This document shows positions 19,485 through 23,025 of a DNA stretch of 64,000 bases, piece by piece. The translations under genes and the position numbers were made by a program. Below the pieces are notes generated by a model that saw nothing but the letters and a program-made list of their open reading frames with translations, did no database searches and was not told the origin of the DNA. Source of the DNA: a virus (taxonomy: Duplodnaviria; Caudoviricetes); the IMG/VR virus record IMGVR_UViG_2896164284_000005, positions 1-64,000 of that record. One strand, written 5' to 3'. Within the stretch, counting starts at the first letter, position 1; the number at the start of each line of letters is the position of its first letter.

Positions 19485-19907
19485 CTAGGTTAGTAGAAAT
19501 AGTTTAGCTTGCTGATATTTCTGCTGTCTTACAAGATCTTTTTCAGTGACTTTTGCTAGACGGCTTAGATCCATGTTATGAGTTAAATCAGCTATCTTGA
19601 CCTTTCTGGCAATCTCGTTAGATTTTACCCTTAAGAGATAGTCTTGGTAACTTTCCCCTTGTCTCTTGGTAATAGCATTAACCGAATCAGCAATCACGCT
19701 ACCAAATAGTTCTGAAATATCATTGAGTGATACTTCTGTATCTTCGACACTATCGTGTAACCACGCTGTTGCAATTACATCATCATTTTCGTTAGCGAGT
19801 AAACCTGCTACAAACGCTAAATGATTGACATAAGGTTGTCCTGCTTTATCTTGTTGATTAGCGTGAATGTGTTGAGCAAACTGTTTTGCTTTAGAAATTA
19901 GCATCAA
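19485..19907 (-). CDS. HD-domain small alarmone hydrolase-like (Mesh1/SpoT-HD)
   Basis: PYVNH, LHDSVEDT, VKIADLTHN motifs. Confidence 0.85.
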   Translation of the reverse strand: MMLISKAKQFAQHIHANQQDKAGQPYVNHLAFVAGLLANENDDVIATAWLHDSVEDTEVSLNDISELFGSVIADSVNAITKRQGESYQDYLLRVKSNEIARKVKIADLTHNMDLSRLAKVTEKDLVRQQKYQQAKLFLLT

Positions 19908-19948
19908 TGTACCTTAGTTTTGTTTTATTTTGACTAATAAATATTTAA

Positions 19949-20152
19949 TTACTGACCTTTCAAATCTCGTACAAGAATCTCATTTTCTGCATCAAAAATA
20001 GCTTTCTGTTCAGGCGTTAGTTTATGCGGATAATCCTGCCAAAAGTTAAATTCAGTGAATTTATCGAATGAAAAAACCAATTCACCAATTTTTTCATCGT
20101 CATCTTTCCACCAAACTTGATCTTTTTTATGATTTTTATACCAAGAGATCAT
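19949..20152 (-). CDS. Small protein, candidate immunity for MuF C-terminal domain
   Basis: ATGA overlap with muF stop; 67 aa. Confidence 0.65.
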   Translation of the reverse strand: MISWYKNHKKDQVWWKDDDEKIGELVFSFDKFTEFNFWQDYPHKLTPEQKAIFDAENEILVRDLKGQ

Positions 20153-23025
20153 TTTTCTCCCCCTAAAACACCTTTTTTCTGCTTATCCTCAGCAGTATTT
20201 AAATACCCTAACACTTCTTTTAGATCTTGTTTCGCTGATTTAAAGCTATCAACCTCAGCTAATTGTATTTTCCTTTTCAAACTATGCTTTTCAGGATTTA
20301 ACCGACAGCCAAATCGTTTATTTAAAGTCTTAATTAAAGAGCCATATTTATTAAAAGACATCCAACCATTTTTATCTTTTGATTGCAACTCAAGGTATTC
20401 TAAACCACTATCGCTAAGCCGTACAATAGCTGCATGCTTACCGGCTCCTAAATAATACTCCTTACCTAATACCAACTCAGAGTTAAGAATATCAGCTGTA
20501 CCTTTAGCCTCTCTTAATACTTCAAACTCTTTTGCTATCACACCCTTTGCTGAAAATAACGTTCTTACATTACGCTTATAACTGAAAAAGTCACAGCTCT
20601 TACCACCACGATAATCCGTAACATCAAGTCCAATTCTATTACCAATATAAGATAAAGCTAAAGACGCACAAGATCCTTTTGTTTCATCACCACCAGCTAA
20701 CTTAGCAATAATATCATCACTAGATAACTGACTTGAAAGCATTTTGACTGGTCTGTATTCGATATTGTAAGCCTTTAAGTCATCAAGCAATTCAATTGTT
20801 GTTTGGTTCAATGACTGCTCTGTATCTAAAAGACCATTCTCCAATTTTACGCTTAATTGCTTTAACGTCAAAGGTCTACCACTCTGATCTAACATATCCG
20901 CAAAAGTAATTACACCTCTACGCCATAAATCCGCCTTACCTTTACCTAAAACCTGATCTTGTTGCTCTGGCGATTTGCTTTTCAACCAATTTTCGTAGTT
21001 AATCTGCTCTGATACAGGGCCATCTTGGCTTGCTCTTGTGCTTGACGGCATTTCTTCCGCATCAATCCCAAGTTCTTTCCAGCTCTTTGTTACAAGCTGC
21101 AAAATACTGCGACAATTATGTGTTATAATGCCATTAGCAATATACCAGCCATCCTTTGTATCGAGATTGTAAACATGCCCACTGAAATCAATGCTTTTAA
21201 TACTAACAATTTGATCCAATCCTACCAAGCCAAACATTCCTTGGCAGATATTTCTCGCCAATTCAACATCTCTATTTATCGGCTGAAGAAATTGCTCATT
21301 GAAAATGGGATCGATATTCGGCAGAACAAAATCAATATTCCAACTAGTCAAGTGATTTCCATTTACGCTCGTGGAGAAACTATTGATAAAACCGCTCAAA
21401 TTTTCAATGTTAGCCCTGCTGTTATTAAACGGATTTTGAGAGAACAAAGGATCAAAATTCGCAACAAAAGAGAACAGTTGATGTTGGATAATGATATTAT
21501 TTTGTTCAAAAATGGCATTACTAAGAGCGATATTGCAGAGCTTTTCCAACAAGGCATTGGAATCAGAGGTATTACTGAACGTTTCAATTTGTCCATACAA
21601 GCGGTGAAGTACATACTTGCAGAATTCAATTTGAGTCCAAGAAATCGCTCCGAACAGCAATTTGCAAGAATGGCTAGAACGCCCTTTGAAGAACGACAAA
21701 AGTTGGCTGCGAGAGCAAATGAAGTTGCTCGTAATCGCATTGAGCCTAAATCCAAAAAGGAACACACTGCCAAAACTCGTGAGCGCAAAGCTTTGGGGAT
21801 TTCCGAAAATGAAAAATTCATCGCCAATCTGCTCTCCAAACGTGGTATTGAGGTTATCCATCAAAAGGCGATTGGTTGCTATAACTGCGATTTGGCTGTT
21901 TTCCCCGTCGCCGTGGAAATCTTCGGCGGTAATTGGCACTGGACAGGTCGTCATTTGGCGAGATTTGAAGAACGAACTCGCTACTTGCTCAATAGTGGAT
22001 GGCATGTTCTCATCATTCCCGCTAATAATACTTCCCCAATCACGGCTCAAGTCGCAGATTATATTGTCTCCTACATTCAACAAGCCAGATGCAACCCAAC
22101 CGCCCCCCGTGAGTATAGGGTGGTTTGGCGTGCAGGTGAGTTTGAAACCTTTGGAACTCTCAATGACGAGCATTTTTCCATTGAACCACCGTTTACTAAC
22201 ACCAGAGATGAGATTACGGGACAGTACAAGACTATCGCCAGATAAACAACGTGGGTGTAAAGGCGGTCGTTGATAAGGAACATCGTGGTCTATCGGCTTT
22301 TTATCCAAATCCCACATTAACCCATCTCTTAATTGACATACCGTTGATGTTCGAGTGTCTAATGTAGAAAGGTGTTTTTCTCCTGCCAAAATATCAAGGT
22401 TTTCATCTCTTAAGGCTTGATGAGCTTTATCTGCCACTTTAGCTACCGCAGTAATTACTAAGGTTTCAGCGTGTCTGCGAGAGGTATTCATCAAATGCTT
22501 AACATCAGTAATTATTTGGCTTGTTTGCTGACCGTCTAGCAACCCTTGGCGAATAATTCCTTCAAACTTAAAGGCAAAATCATTTCCTTGCTTTGCCCAC
22601 CAATCTGCTAAAGGCGAACCTGCAATAATCGTTGCGGTTTTATTCGCTTTTTGCTTATATTCAGGCACCTGATTAAAAAAATCAAAGCCGACTTCATCAT
22701 TGTAAAGCTGATGAATATGTTGGGTTTCCGCCGTAAAAAAACCGCTTAACTCGTCTTGCGTGTAAGCGGTCATTTCTTGATAGACTTTTGCAACTTCTTG
22801 CTTAAGCTCCTTAAGCAGTGTGTCTAATTGCTTTTTAGGTAAAGCATCCACACCTGCAGCCGCTAAACGATTGAGCAACTCACGTTGTGTTTTACTCAGC
22901 TGTTTCATAACCTGCTGTCTAAGATGTGCATCATAACGAAAATGCAGAATTTTGCGATCAGTCAAGGCGTATGCAATACGACTATTCAGGCTTTGTTTCG
23001 GCTTGTCCTGCGAACTCAAGGTCAT
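20149..23025 (-). CDS. MuF (SPP1 gp7-like) minor head protein with intein and C-terminal toxin-like extension
   Basis: STLDTRTSTVC..DG; PPLHPR|CRS split by a Hint domain; C-terminal GSCAS..GKHAA. Confidence 0.9.
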   Translation of the reverse strand: MTLSSQDKPKQSLNSRIAYALTDRKILHFRYDAHLRQQVMKQLSKTQRELLNRLAAAGVDALPKKQLDTLLKELKQEVAKVYQEMTAYTQDELSGFFTAETQHIHQLYNDEVGFDFFNQVPEYKQKANKTATIIAGSPLADWWAKQGNDFAFKFEGIIRQGLLDGQQTSQIITDVKHLMNTSRRHAETLVITAVAKVADKAHQALRDENLDILAGEKHLSTLDTRTSTVCQLRDGLMWDLDKKPIDHDVPYQRPPLHPRCLSGDSLVLSRNLISGVSKRWFNGKMLVIESSKGFKLTCTPNHPILTGGGWVASGLLNVGDNIICDLSRDWGSIISGNDENMPSTIEQVASSFFKSRQMTTCPVPITAEDFHGDGENSQIAVIATNRLLMDNLNTTFGEQIGDEFFIFGNPQSFALTSFGSVFLFGFRLNAITSNFICSRSQLLSFFKGRSSHSCKLLFGAISWTQIEFCKYVLHRLYGQIETFSNTSDSNALLEKLCNIALSNAIFEQNNIIIQHQLFSFVANFDPLFSQNPFNNSRANIENLSGFINSFSTSVNGNHLTSWNIDFVLPNIDPIFNEQFLQPINRDVELARNICQGMFGLVGLDQIVSIKSIDFSGHVYNLDTKDGWYIANGIITHNCRSILQLVTKSWKELGIDAEEMPSSTRASQDGPVSEQINYENWLKSKSPEQQDQVLGKGKADLWRRGVITFADMLDQSGRPLTLKQLSVKLENGLLDTEQSLNQTTIELLDDLKAYNIEYRPVKMLSSQLSSDDIIAKLAGGDETKGSCASLALSYIGNRIGLDVTDYRGGKSCDFFSYKRNVRTLFSAKGVIAKEFEVLREAKGTADILNSELVLGKEYYLGAGKHAAIVRLSDSGLEYLELQSKDKNGWMSFNKYGSLIKTLNKRFGCRLNPEKHSLKRKIQLAEVDSFKSAKQDLKEVLGYLNTAEDKQKKGVLGGEK
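21121..21129 (+). promoter_or_regulatory. Extended -10 promoter TGTTATAAT for antisense nuclease gene
   Basis: Perfect TGnTATAAT ending 45 nt upstream of ATG 21175. Confidence 0.6.
21175..22245 (+). CDS. Antisense-encoded putative homing endonuclease (3 HTH repeats + Vsr/DUF559-like domain)
   Basis: Repeats I..Y..G.S...I...FN.S...I..IL....I..R; SENE..Q..IG.Y.CD....VEIFGGNWH..R..L...GW.VL; ORF also open from ATG 21118. Confidence 0.85.
   Translation: MPTEINAFNTNNLIQSYQAKHSLADISRQFNISIYRLKKLLIENGIDIRQNKINIPTSQVISIYARGETIDKTAQIFNVSPAVIKRILREQRIKIRNKREQLMLDNDIILFKNGITKSDIAELFQQGIGIRGITERFNLSIQAVKYILAEFNLSPRNRSEQQFARMARTPFEERQKLAARANEVARNRIEPKSKKEHTAKTRERKALGISENEKFIANLLSKRGIEVIHQKAIGCYNCDLAVFPVAVEIFGGNWHWTGRHLARFEERTRYLLNSGWHVLIIPANNTSPITAQVADYIVSYIQQARCNPTAPREYRVVWRAGEFETFGTLNDEHFSIEPPFTNTRDEITGQYKTIAR

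What the first reader, a model, noticed from the sequence alone, without database searches (positions are those of the whole stretch)
21115..22248. Intein whose homing endonuclease is a separate gene on the opposite strand
Seen: the MuF intein has intact splicing blocks (CLSGD, TPNH, VYNL..THN|C), and excising it restores PPLHPR-CRS. Its ~280-aa centre has no LAGLIDADG or HNH motif and reads like an antisense shadow. The complementary strand, in the same codon register, is open from 21118 to 22245, i.e. from the penultimate His codon to the second codon of the intein. It encodes three tandem HTH repeats, a basic linker and a Vsr/DUF559-like nuclease (SENE..Q..IG.Y.CD..VEIFGGNWH..R..L..GW.V). 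Known: intein endonucleases are normally in-frame domains; Vsr-like EDxHD enzymes are phage homing endonucleases; antisense endonuclease genes occur in some group I introns. Inference: this is a two-strand mobile element. The sense strand must stay stop-free and splice, while the antisense strand supplies a free nuclease that can be expressed independently of the late head operon. I do not know of a described intein with this layout.
Basis: partly seen in the sequence, partly recalled or inferred. Interest (0 to 1): 0.96.

Follow-up and report, generated by a model that had tools for sequence, protein, structure and literature searches.

The report
MuF intein with antisense homing endonuclease
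A self-splicing protein insert (intein) in a prophage head-assembly gene carries its DNA-cutting mobility enzyme as a separate gene on the opposite strand, codon against codon; it is real and under selection on both strands, but a 2025 preprint already described the layout.

Summary
The muF gene (20149-23025, minus strand) holds a 378-codon class-1 intein (21115-22248). An open frame on the plus strand, in the same codon register (21118-22245; likely start ATG 21175), encodes three HTH units, a helical linker and a Vsr/DUF559-like nuclease.

Both frames are under selection. The plus ORF uses none of the three codons that would stop muF (chance about 4e-10). The same layout is intact in 75 of 76 related loci from many phyla. 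The plus frame is the constrained one in the centre, and the intein frame at the ends. The nuclease folds confidently (pLDDT 93.5; best fold match I-Bth0305I). The sense-frame centre does not fold.

Start codon, Shine-Dalgarno and stop codon of the nuclease gene are written into conserved intein codons, and synonymous-codon bias supports this. Intein-less alleles exist in close relatives.

The layout is not new. Gosselin, Arsenault and Gogarten (bioRxiv 2025) describe anti-sense VSR-like endonucleases in actinophage minor-capsid inteins, and the Gordonia copies are homologues. This scan has also met the layout many times on other DNA. Expression and cleavage are untested.

Verdict: a new member of a known kind.

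The parts
20149..23025 (-). muF (head morphogenesis) gene, 958-aa precursor including the intein
   Evidence: ORF list. Pfam Phage_Mu_F 36.1 bits (cut-off 29.6). PHROG head morphogenesis families, E 1.8e-147.
22249..23025 (-). N-extein (259 aa), ends ..PPLHPR
   Evidence: 67% identical to the intein-less MuF of Mannheimia phage vB_MhS_1152AP2.
21115..22248 (-). Intein, 378 codons: Cys1 (22246-22248), block B TPNH (22120-22131), block F GHVYNL, terminal HN (21115-21120)
   Evidence: Sequence. Contigs of relatives skip exactly 1134 nt here.
20149..21114 (-). C-extein (321 aa plus stop), begins with Cys+1 (21112-21114), CRSILQLV..
22039..22248 (-). N-terminal lobe of the HINT splicing domain (intein residues about 1-70)
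   Evidence: AF2 block pLDDT 79-94. Foldseek matches to RecA, RadA and DnaB mini-inteins, prob 1.0. The minus frame is the more conserved here.
21115..21225 (-). C-terminal lobe of the HINT domain (intein residues about 342-378; blocks F and G)
   Evidence: AF2 block pLDDT 82-93. Minus-frame identity 0.57 against 0.34 for the plus frame.
21274..21861 (-). Sense-frame centre of the intein (residues about 130-325): translated spacer with no confident fold
   Evidence: pLDDT under 50. No Pfam domain. The minus frame is the less conserved frame here.
21175..22245 (+). Antisense nuclease gene, 356 aa plus stop (an upstream in-frame ATG at 21118 is probably not used)
   Evidence: 88 relatives; conserved M-P-x-K start; pLDDT 93.5.
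21193..21624 (+). Three helix-turn-helix units (nuclease residues 7-150)
   Evidence: Pfam HTH_7, HTH_28 and HTH_23 above their cut-offs. Nine helices in three bundles plus one linking helix (98-112). Profile match to 2lvs, E 3.6e-7.
21646..21789 (+). Helical basic linker (residues 158-205)
   Evidence: AF2 helices 158-168, 171-186 and 192-205.
21790..22092 (+). Vsr/DUF559-like nuclease domain (residues 206-306). Conserved D239 (21889-21891), E248 (21916-21918), H255 (21937-21939)
   Evidence: Foldseek top hit 3r3p_A, prob 1.0, TM 0.63; 3hrl TM 0.70. Profile against PDB: 3hrl 1.1e-6, 3r3p 2.1e-5. MTES_1575 hit in 45 of 54 relatives. Conserved columns.
22093..22242 (+). C-terminal tail of the nuclease (residues 307-356), encoded opposite intein blocks A-B
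   Evidence: AF2 strands, block pLDDT 76-94. Kept stop-free: 0 forbidden codons among 9 Leu and 15 Ser codons of the intein N-lobe, chance 6e-5 in the window; stop-free in 26 of 30 loci.
21121..21129 (+). TGTTATAAT, an extended -10-like element, complement of the I-I-T codons of block G
   Evidence: Read. A TAnnnT hexamer sits at the same fixed place, 45 nt before the start, in 40 of 63 loci. The scanning tool did not call it because no -35 is present. Inferred.
21163..21177 (+). Weak Shine-Dalgarno (GAGA) and start codon ATG 21175, complement of the Leu and His codons of block F
   Evidence: Block F His is CAT 31: CAC 5, and block F Leu is CTC in 29 of 36.
22243..22245 (+). Stop codon TAA of the nuclease gene, complement of intein codon 2 (Leu, TTA)
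   Evidence: Leu2 is TTA or CTA in 37 of 41 inteins.

Best explanation
This is a two-strand mobile element. It combines a class-1 intein in the conserved PPxHxx|CR(S/C) motif of the phage MuF head-morphogenesis protein with a homing-endonuclease gene on the complementary strand, in the same codon register. Shown here: (1) the muF frame runs unbroken through the insert and ends in intact splicing blocks; (2) the antisense frame encodes a conserved, confidently folding protein with HTH units, a linker and a Vsr/DUF559-like nuclease; (3) both frames are under purifying selection, each dominant in its own part, and each avoids the codons that would stop the other; (4) the nuclease gene lies wholly inside the intein, with start, Shine-Dalgarno and stop written into conserved intein codons; (5) the insert is present or absent at exactly this site among close relatives. 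Inferred: MuF is translated as a precursor, and the two HINT lobes fold around a roughly 200-residue unstructured spacer and splice PPLHPR to CRS. The nuclease would be transcribed from a promoter-like element inside the intein's 3' end and translated separately. It would bind an intein-less muF allele through its HTH array and cut near the CGT|TGT junction. Repair from the intein-bearing copy would then copy the whole 1134-bp unit. Because the gene faces away from the late operon, it could be made when muF is silent, for example from the prophage.
For: Anatomy. Conservation of the layout: the nuclease match lies opposite the annotated MuF gene in Gordonia phage Fosterous, Salmonella phage PK2 and Vibrio phage 1.197.A. 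The minus frame in the same register is open across the match in 34 of 35 phage or viral loci and in 41 of 41 loci from bacterial genomes of many phyla. The other two antisense registers are open for only 3-192 codons. Selection: on 30 unique inteins, plus codons 136-297 have plus-frame identity 0.29-0.55 against 0.18-0.47, with plus position 3 the most variable. At the ends the minus frame is more conserved (0.57 against 0.34 and 0.45), with minus position 3 the most variable. There are no forbidden codons in the centre in 30 of 30 loci (per-locus chance 5e-7 to 0.44) and none in the N-lobe in 26 of 30. In the 20 codons upstream of the nuclease start, 14 of 30 loci do carry one, which serves as an internal control. 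Folds: nuclease pLDDT 93.5, top Foldseek hit the I-Bth0305I catalytic domain. The sense intein model is confident only at residues about 1-70, 82-101 and 342-378, and matches mini-inteins. Hard-wired signals: ATG, GTG or TTG lies opposite the block F His in 50 of 63 loci. His codon CAT:CAC is 31:5 there against 65:68 in exteins (P 5e-5). The block F Leu is CTC in 29 of 36 against 22% in exteins (P 6e-13). Leu2 is TTA or CTA in 37 of 41 against 18%. Mobility: the Mannheimia phage MuF has the uninterrupted PPLHPRCRSILQLV. Contigs in three runs from three studies join 21111 to 22246 (4-nt ambiguity), skipping 1134 nt, with flanks about 95% identical. Only 1 of 200 other genomes of the host family has even a weak relative.
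Against: There is no direct evidence that the plus strand is transcribed or translated. The RNA runs found are kept as contigs and cannot show strand. The promoter scan called no plus-strand promoter upstream of 21175, because there is no -35. The -10-like hexamer is present in only 40 of 63 loci, and the window's Shine-Dalgarno is weak (GAGA). Nuclease activity, target site and splicing are untested. The E-D-x-H-D signature of the I-Bth0305I family could not be mapped: the invariant D239 aligns to Ala in 3r3p, and the Pfam nuclease hit is below its curated cut-off. One related locus (L010) has stops in both frames. Loci are related, so counts and P values overstate independence.
Confidence: 0.8

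Rival explanations
1. The antisense protein is functional but has been taken over for another role, and homing is secondary or lost. Possible roles are a prophage-encoded nuclease or DNA-binding protein that excludes related incoming phages, or a regulator.
For: The protein has an array of one to five HTH units of variable number. It has its own possible promoter facing away from the late operon. It sits in a prophage within a bacterial genome. It is rare in the host family. The preprint reports that some groups of these inteins look vertically inherited.
Against: In 76 of 76 loci the nuclease gene is found only inside an intein, broken in one of them (L010), and no free-standing copy turned up with the same search patterns. 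There is an exact presence/absence polymorphism at the splice junction. Cutting intein-less muF would give exclusion and homing at once, so the two readings are hard to separate.
Confidence: 0.12
2. The antisense ORF is a decaying relic of an endonuclease gene that once invaded a mini-intein. It is no longer expressed and stays open only by ancestry or chance.
For: There is no expression evidence. One relative (L010) is broken. The window's Shine-Dalgarno is weak.
Against: Plus-frame purifying selection is seen across relatives only 30-47% identical. The catalytic columns are invariant in 54-56 sequences. Synonymous-codon bias preserves the start, Shine-Dalgarno and stop. Upstream of the start, stops do accumulate (14 of 30 loci), so openness is not a general property of this DNA.
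Confidence: 0.05
3. The gene is really fractured: a split intein with a free-standing endonuclease gene between two muF halves, as in Dassa et al. 2009. On this reading the long sense ORF is an annotation artefact.
For: The nuclease belongs to the Vsr-like group that occurs in fractured genes (abstract and passages read).
Against: The muF frame has no stop across the insert in the window or in 75 of 76 relatives. It is kept open against codon usage, which only makes sense if it is translated through.
Confidence: 0.02

Closest known systems
Full inteins with an anti-sense VSR-like homing endonuclease in actinobacteriophage minor capsid proteins (Gosselin, Arsenault, Gogarten, bioRxiv 10.1101/2025.01.02.630785; abstract and sections 8 and 15 read)
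   Same: The layout is the same: endonuclease ORF on the antisense strand of the intein, with a Vsr-like nuclease for which the authors' HHpred matched 3R3P. The host protein type is the same. The Gordonia phage copies (Fosterous, Vivi2, Affeca, Angelicage, Malisha) are homologues of the window's nuclease (29-30% over 72-78% of its length; 35-38% in the nuclease domain). In Fosterous, the one locus I opened, the match lies opposite the MuF-like gene.
   Different: The window is a prophage in a 2.66-Mb bacterial genome whose nearest phage relatives are Mannheimia and Pasteurella phages, not an actinophage. [quoted passage not shown] Here the ORF spans intein codons 2-358 and overlaps the folded N-lobe. 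The preprint passages I read give no codon-level selection tests or expression signals. Its supplements were not available to me.
Inteins with an anti-sense LAGLIDADG endonuclease ORF (Synechocystis DnaX, Chloroflexus SpoVR-like; Gorbalenya 1998 and Gogarten 2002, as cited in the preprint; I saw only the citing passages)
   Same: The endonuclease is encoded on the strand opposite to the intein.
   Different: The nuclease family (LAGLIDADG) and the host genes are different, and these are cellular rather than phage.
Fractured genes: split inteins with a free-standing Vsr-like endonuclease gene between the halves (Dassa et al. 2009, PMC2677866; abstract and passages read)
   Same: A separate, self-expressed Vsr-like endonuclease gene sits inside an intein, mainly in phages. 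The proposed origin is the same: invasion of an intein by a free-standing endonuclease gene.
   Different: There the host gene and intein are broken into two ORFs and splice in trans. Here the sense frame is continuous and the nuclease is antisense.
I-Bth0305I, prototype of the EDxHD homing endonucleases (Taylor et al. 2011, PMC3239194; abstract and passages read; PDB 3r3p)
   Same: Best structural match of the nuclease domain and a significant profile match (E 2.1e-5). It also has an N-terminal DNA-binding region followed by a C-terminal Vsr-like catalytic domain.
   Different: I-Bth0305I is intron-encoded and in sense orientation. Its DNA-binding part is described as NUMOD-type, whereas here there are HTH_7-type repeats. 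The conserved D..E..WH pattern here aligns better with the DUF559-like protein 3hrl.
Canonical large inteins with an in-frame LAGLIDADG or HNH domain (for example the VMA inteins of PMC8966425; passages read)
   Same: A HINT splicing domain split by an insertion that provides homing.
   Different: In those, the endonuclease is a domain of the same polypeptide. Here the same stretch of the polypeptide is an unstructured spacer, and the enzyme is a separate protein from the other strand.

Membership tests
Intein (HINT domain, class 1) | N-terminal Cys or Ser nucleophile | tested here: met
   Cys1 follows PPLHPR. Cys is present in all 33 complete related loci.
Intein (HINT domain, class 1) | Block B TxxH | tested here: met
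   TPNH at intein residues 40-43. T, N and H are invariant in 24 sequences (that call's numbering is one lower).
Intein (HINT domain, class 1) | C-terminal His-Asn followed by Cys, Ser or Thr at +1 | tested here: met
   ..GIITHN|CRS.
Intein (HINT domain, class 1) | HINT fold | tested here: met
   The confident parts of the AF2 model match the Mtu RecA, Pho RadA and Ssp DnaB mini-inteins, prob 1.0, E 4e-3 to 3e-2. TM values are low because half of the model is disordered.
Intein (HINT domain, class 1) | Pfam Intein_splicing above the curated cut-off | tested here: not met
   28.8 bits against a cut-off of 35.8 (E 1.2e-6). This is a score shortfall, not a missing motif.
Intein (HINT domain, class 1) | Precise in-frame removal restores a conserved host motif | tested here: met
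   The uninterrupted PPLHPRCRSILQLV is present in the Mannheimia phage MuF. Contigs skip exactly 1134 nt.
Intein (HINT domain, class 1) | Protein splicing activity | not testable with these tools
   Needs expression of the precursor.
Anti-sense VSR-like HEN inteins (Gosselin et al. 2025) | Endonuclease ORF on the antisense strand inside a contiguous intein | tested here: met
Anti-sense VSR-like HEN inteins (Gosselin et al. 2025) | Vsr-like nuclease, homologous to the actinophage copies, in a minor capsid (MuF-like) protein | tested here: met
   tblastn hits lie under the annotated MuF-like or head-morphogenesis genes of Gordonia phages; the opposite strand was checked in Fosterous. Fold and profile matches.
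EDxHD homing endonucleases (I-Bth0305I) | Vsr-like catalytic fold | tested here: met
   3r3p_A is the top Foldseek hit, prob 1.0, TM 0.63 on the target. Profile E 2.1e-5.
EDxHD homing endonucleases (I-Bth0305I) | Composite catalytic motif E-D-x-H-D | tested here: inconclusive
   The Glu of VAVEIF aligns with a Glu of 3r3p, but the invariant Asp of YNCD aligns with Ala. I could not map the remaining motif residues.
EDxHD homing endonucleases (I-Bth0305I) | Site-specific cleavage of the element-free allele | not testable with these tools
   Needs a biochemical assay.
DUF559 / REase_MTES_1575 (Vsr-like PD-(D/E)xK clan; the clan assignment is recalled, not from a call) | Pfam match above the curated cut-off | tested here: not met
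   Window domain 24.7 bits against 38.2. MTES_1575 is hit at E up to 0.01 by 45 of 54 relatives and DUF559 by 4 of 54.
DUF559 / REase_MTES_1575 (Vsr-like PD-(D/E)xK clan; the clan assignment is recalled, not from a call) | Conserved Asp, Glu and His of the active-site strands | tested here: met
   D, E and H of YNCD..VAVEIFGGNWH align with D, E and H of 3hrl. They are invariant in 54 sequences.
Fractured gene with split intein (Dassa et al. 2009) | Host gene and intein broken into two ORFs | tested here: not met
   The sense frame is continuous in the window and in 75 of 76 related loci.
Homing endonuclease gene (functional sense) | Sporadic presence or absence at one precise site among close relatives | tested here: met

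The most novel reading that the evidence does not exclude
This nuclease clade may exist only as an antisense passenger of inteins, and the overlap may be engineered to the codon. The -10 element would be written in block G. The Shine-Dalgarno and start are written in block F, the stop in intein codon 2, and about 65 codons encode parts of two folded domains at once (HINT N-lobe; last helix and tail of the nuclease). The orientation would let a prophage make the enzyme while the late operon is silent, so that incoming intein-less relatives are cut, giving homing and superinfection exclusion in one act.
Probability: 0.35. Interest if true: 0.75.

Novelty: new member of a known kind. Interest (0 to 1): 0.5.

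Why it matters
The layout is an extreme case of antiparallel dual coding, with two unrelated proteins read from the same codons and each frame policing the other's stop codons. It shows that an intein and a free-standing-type endonuclease can form one portable unit without being fused. The family is far wider than the actinophage survey that first described it. I found 77 cultured-phage records (62 of them Salmonella phages) and 41 bacterial-genome loci (40 from the phylum-wide scan, one from the window's host family). In most phage records only the sense gene is annotated, so the nuclease gene is systematically missed. The hard-wired start, stop and promoter-like elements give concrete handles for testing how such a gene is expressed.

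Tried and rejected
I used the search for related loci instead.

The VIA-align second look was not available, so fold evidence rests on Foldseek alone.

A search for longer proteins carrying the nuclease domain in frame found none. The tool itself calls this weak evidence.

RNA evidence: 23 runs held at most 9% of the sampled words. I laid four of the 23. All four are kept as contigs and cannot show strand or expression. None covers the interior of the intein apart from a 37-nt conserved piece in a wastewater run. So nothing can be said about transcription. Only the joints are used as evidence.

The promoter scan called no plus-strand promoter upstream of 21175.

Literature searches that gave nothing relevant. 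PMC8966425 and PMC4853749 were opened and do not bear on this. The Jerseyvirus paper PMC8425127 names an intein-containing capsid morphogenesis protein but, in the passages shown, no antisense gene. I found no paper in this library that reports the antisense layout outside actinophages. Supplementary files of the preprint were closed and may list more hosts.

Rows dropped:
- L010, L026 and L029 lack a complete boundary and were left out.
- L024 and L025 are identical to L023.
- L020 was dropped because my boundary pattern gave a 712-codon span with five plus-frame stops. I did not resolve it.
- In one search, 8 loci did not fit the block pattern and were not counted.
- One search used a stricter pattern (36 loci).
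- In one search, three loci (L009, L014, L063) were caught one residue early and fall outside the Leu2 count.

An error of mine: the reference I gave for the sense intein (21112-22245) is shifted by one codon. It lacks Cys1 and includes Cys+1, so residue numbers are one lower than true intein numbering. The conclusions are not affected.


Full report
**What is there**

The window holds a minus-strand ORF, 20149-23025, of 958 aa. It is a phage MuF/head-morphogenesis protein: Pfam Phage_Mu_F scores 36.1 bits against a cut-off of 29.6, and PHROG head-morphogenesis families reach E 1.8e-147.

After ..PPLHPR the protein continues CLSGD.., has TPNH forty residues on, and ends the insert with ..SGHVYNLDTKDGWYIANGIITHN before CRSILQLV. 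These are the marks of a class-1 intein: Cys1, block B TxxH, a terminal His-Asn and Cys+1.

The plus strand is open from 21118 to 22245 (375 aa). It uses the same triplets as the muF frame.

**The antisense frame encodes a real protein**

- Pfam finds HTH_7 (37.8 bits, cut-off 23.8), HTH_28 and HTH_23, plus a sub-threshold REase_MTES_1575 match at residues 232-300.
- The big protein collection holds 88 relatives, up to 46% identical. Some are named very-short-patch-repair endonuclease by their source.
- An alignment of 56 sequences shows one to five HTH units and a conserved core: Q.AIGPYNCDLA..PVAVEIFGG.WHW.G.HLAR.E.R.RY.LN.GWHVL. Y236, N237, D239, E248 and R267 are invariant, counted from the conserved start.
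- AlphaFold2 on that alignment gives mean pLDDT 93.5. The model shows three three-helix bundles (with a linking helix between the second and third), a long helical linker, an alpha/beta domain and a beta-stranded tail.
- Foldseek's best PDB match is the catalytic domain of the homing endonuclease I-Bth0305I (3r3p_A: prob 1.0, TM 0.63 on the target, E 1.5e-2). The DUF559-like protein 3hrl has TM 0.70.
- A profile of the nuclease domain alone (54 sequences) hits 3hrl at 1.1e-6, 3r3p at 2.1e-5 and Vsr at about 0.1.
- MTES_1575 is hit by 45 of 54 members and DUF559 by 4.

**The sense frame of the centre is not a domain**

No LAGLIDADG, HNH or other family is found in it. An AlphaFold2 model of the sense intein, built from 24 sequences, is confident only at true intein residues about 1-70, 82-101 and 342-378. 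It falls below pLDDT 50 from about 130 to 325 (that call's numbers are one lower because my reference was shifted by one codon). The confident parts match mini-intein structures such as Mtu RecA, Pho RadA and Ssp DnaB, with prob 1.0. The invariant minus-frame motif DFHGD in the middle is simply the complement of the nuclease's VAVEI active-site strand.

**Both frames are kept open by selection**

For muF to read through, the plus ORF must never use TTA, CTA or TCA. It has 0 of 24 Leu and 0 of 19 Ser codons of these kinds, although the other long ORFs of the window use them for 50% of Leu and 22% of Ser. The chance of this is about 4e-10.

I then collected relatives:
- three phage records;
- 32 viral contigs;
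- 40 loci from bacterial genomes, from Pseudomonas to Chloroflexota, Actinomycetota, Bacteroidota, Cyanobacteria and candidate phyla;
- one locus from the host family.

The minus frame in the same register is open across the whole nuclease match in 34 of 35 and in 41 of 41. The other two antisense registers are open for only 3-192 codons. The exception, L010, differs from its near-twin L009 by substitutions that create a stop in both frames.

Across 30 unique inteins there are no forbidden codons in the centre in 30 of 30. Per-locus chance ranges from 5e-7 to 0.44, with a median of 0.05. There are none in the intein's N-terminal 105 codons in 26 of 30.

In the 20 codons that lie upstream of the nuclease start, 14 of 30 loci do carry one. 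So openness is not a general property of this DNA.

**Which frame is constrained where**

I used a codon alignment of the 30 inteins, guided by either frame, and the result was the same both ways.

| Plus-strand codons | Corresponds to | Plus-frame identity | Minus-frame identity | Most variable position |
|---|---|---|---|---|
| 136-297 | last HTH, linker, nuclease core | 0.29-0.55 | 0.18-0.47 | third position of the plus frame |
| 1-27 and 325-378 | opposite intein blocks F/G and A/B | 0.34 and 0.40-0.45 | 0.57 at 1-27 and 325-351; 0.44 at 352-378 | third position of the minus frame |

**The overlap is deeper than a gene in a junk spacer**

The nuclease ORF runs from the complement of intein residue 358 to the complement of residue 2. 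Its last core helix (residues 291-306) and its 50-residue tail lie opposite the confidently folded N-lobe of the intein.

The tail is kept stop-free: chance is 6e-5 in the window, with 9 Leu and 15 Ser codons. It contains columns invariant in 56 sequences (Y314, R315).

The block B His codon is CAC in 28 loci and CAT in 4, against 68:65 in exteins. CAC reads as Val in the plus frame, so this points to a plus-frame constraint even there.

[quoted passage not shown] In this family they do not.

**Expression signals are written into conserved intein codons**

- Start codon: the nuclease start lies opposite the His of block F (GHVYNL). ATG, GTG or TTG is there in 50 of 63 unique loci. That His is CAT in 31 loci and CAC in 5, against 65:68 in exteins (Fisher P 5e-5).
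- Shine-Dalgarno: eight to nine bases upstream, the complement of Asn-Leu gives GAGGTT. The Leu is CTC in 29 of 36, against 22% of extein Leu codons (P 6e-13). The window has the weaker GAGATT.
- Promoter-like element: forty-five bases before the start, the complement of the hydrophobic pair and Thr of block G gives a -10-like TAnnnT in 40 of 63 loci. In the window it is TGTTATAAT at 21121-21129. The scan tool did not call it because there is no -35, so I treat the promoter as inference.
- Stop codon: the stop is the complement of Leu2 of the intein. Leu2 is TTA or CTA in 37 of 41 inteins that have Leu there, against 18% in their N-exteins.

So everything the nuclease gene needs lies inside the 1134 bp that homing would copy. 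The loci are related, so the P values overstate independence. However, they are only 30-47% identical in protein.

**Mobility**

- The MuF of Mannheimia phage vB_MhS_1152AP2 is 67% and 77% identical in the flanks. It has the uninterrupted motif PPLHPRCRSILQLV.
- Contigs in three sequencing runs from three studies join window position 21111 to 22246, with four ambiguous bases, which includes the exact intein borders. They skip 1134 nt, and their flanks are about 95% identical to the window.
- Inteins are not removed from RNA, so these contigs represent intein-less alleles in close relatives.
- The genome has one copy.
- Of 200 other genomes of the same bacterial family, one has a weak relative (24% identity), which has the same layout.
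- All related inteins whose borders I could read sit in the MuF-type H..|C..HN|C(R) site. L061 sits at another Cys of the same kind of protein.

**How it most likely works**

Shown here: the anatomy, selection on both frames, the folds, and the presence/absence polymorphism.

Inferred:
1. The precursor is translated through a roughly 200-residue spacer and splices.
2. The nuclease is made separately from its own signals.
3. Its HTH array recognises the intein-less muF allele.
4. The Vsr-like domain cuts it.
5. Repair copies the unit.

The orientation could allow synthesis from the prophage while the late genes are off. I have no evidence for or against this.

**Comparison with what is known**

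- Gosselin, Arsenault and Gogarten (bioRxiv 10.1101/2025.01.02.630785, version of 20 Oct 2025; abstract and sections 8 and 15 read) report anti-sense VSR-like endonucleases in full inteins of actinobacteriophages. Minor capsid proteins are among the hosts, and they report an HHpred match to 3R3P.
- The same preprint cites anti-sense LAGLIDADG inteins from 1998 and 2002.
- My tblastn shows that the Gordonia phage copies are homologues of the window's gene.
- Dassa et al. 2009 describe the same nuclease group as free-standing genes inside split inteins.
- Taylor et al. 2011 characterise I-Bth0305I.

In the library searched, I found nothing on this layout outside actinophages. Jerseyvirus papers mention the intein only. 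This scan has met the same arrangement many times on other DNA: 212 notes hold my five search words (not all need concern this layout), and all eight shown describe it; several follow-ups cite the same preprint.

**Verdict**

The element is a new member of a known kind.
- the breadth of the family;
- the codon-level evidence for two-way selection;
- the overlap with the folded N-lobe;
- the hard-wired start, Shine-Dalgarno and stop;
- the exact empty alleles in close relatives.

Expression, splicing and cleavage remain to be shown.

Noticed in passing
window 19485-20850: The MuF protein continues about 200 residues beyond the MuF core. Residues 755-958 match PHROG phrog_7104, of unknown function. 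A 67-aa ORF (19949-20152) overlaps its stop, and a 140-aa ORF follows (19485-19907). Other notes of this scan read these as a toxin-like extension with partner genes. I did not test that.
   Followed up: no
L010:3070-3090: Compared with its near-identical twin L009, a few substitutions create a stop in the nuclease frame and, on the same bases, a stop in the muF frame. It is either a dead copy or a sequencing error.
   Followed up: partly
L061, compared with L058 and L064: In one Anaerolineaceae locus the same kind of intein sits at a different Cys of the MuF-like protein (..TCAM|C..HN|CWAMDG..). This is upstream of the site used in two related loci (..HPNGR|C..). It may be a case of site switching.
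   Followed up: no
L020:2911-5877: My boundary pattern gave a 712-codon span with five plus-frame stops beyond the nuclease ORF. The host ORF is 989 aa. This may be a second insertion or a wrong N-boundary, and I did not resolve it.
   Followed up: no
L002 (Salmonella phage PK2) 2408-3217: A few phage records, PK2 among them, annotate the antisense ORF as a hypothetical protein. In most of the 60 records listed of 77 that carry the nuclease domain, only the head gene is annotated under the match.
   Followed up: partly
window 22120-22131: The block B His codon is CAC in 28 loci and CAT in 4 across relatives, although exteins use both equally. CAC reads as Val in the nuclease tail (R-E-Y-R-V), a sign of plus-frame constraint inside a splicing block.
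   Followed up: partly
L039 (G090:C19:11626-15378): The only other hit among 200 genomes of the host family is a 24%-identical nuclease. It again lies antisense in an open 801-codon frame, with CFPGQ.. and ..SN|CRC borders.
   Followed up: partly
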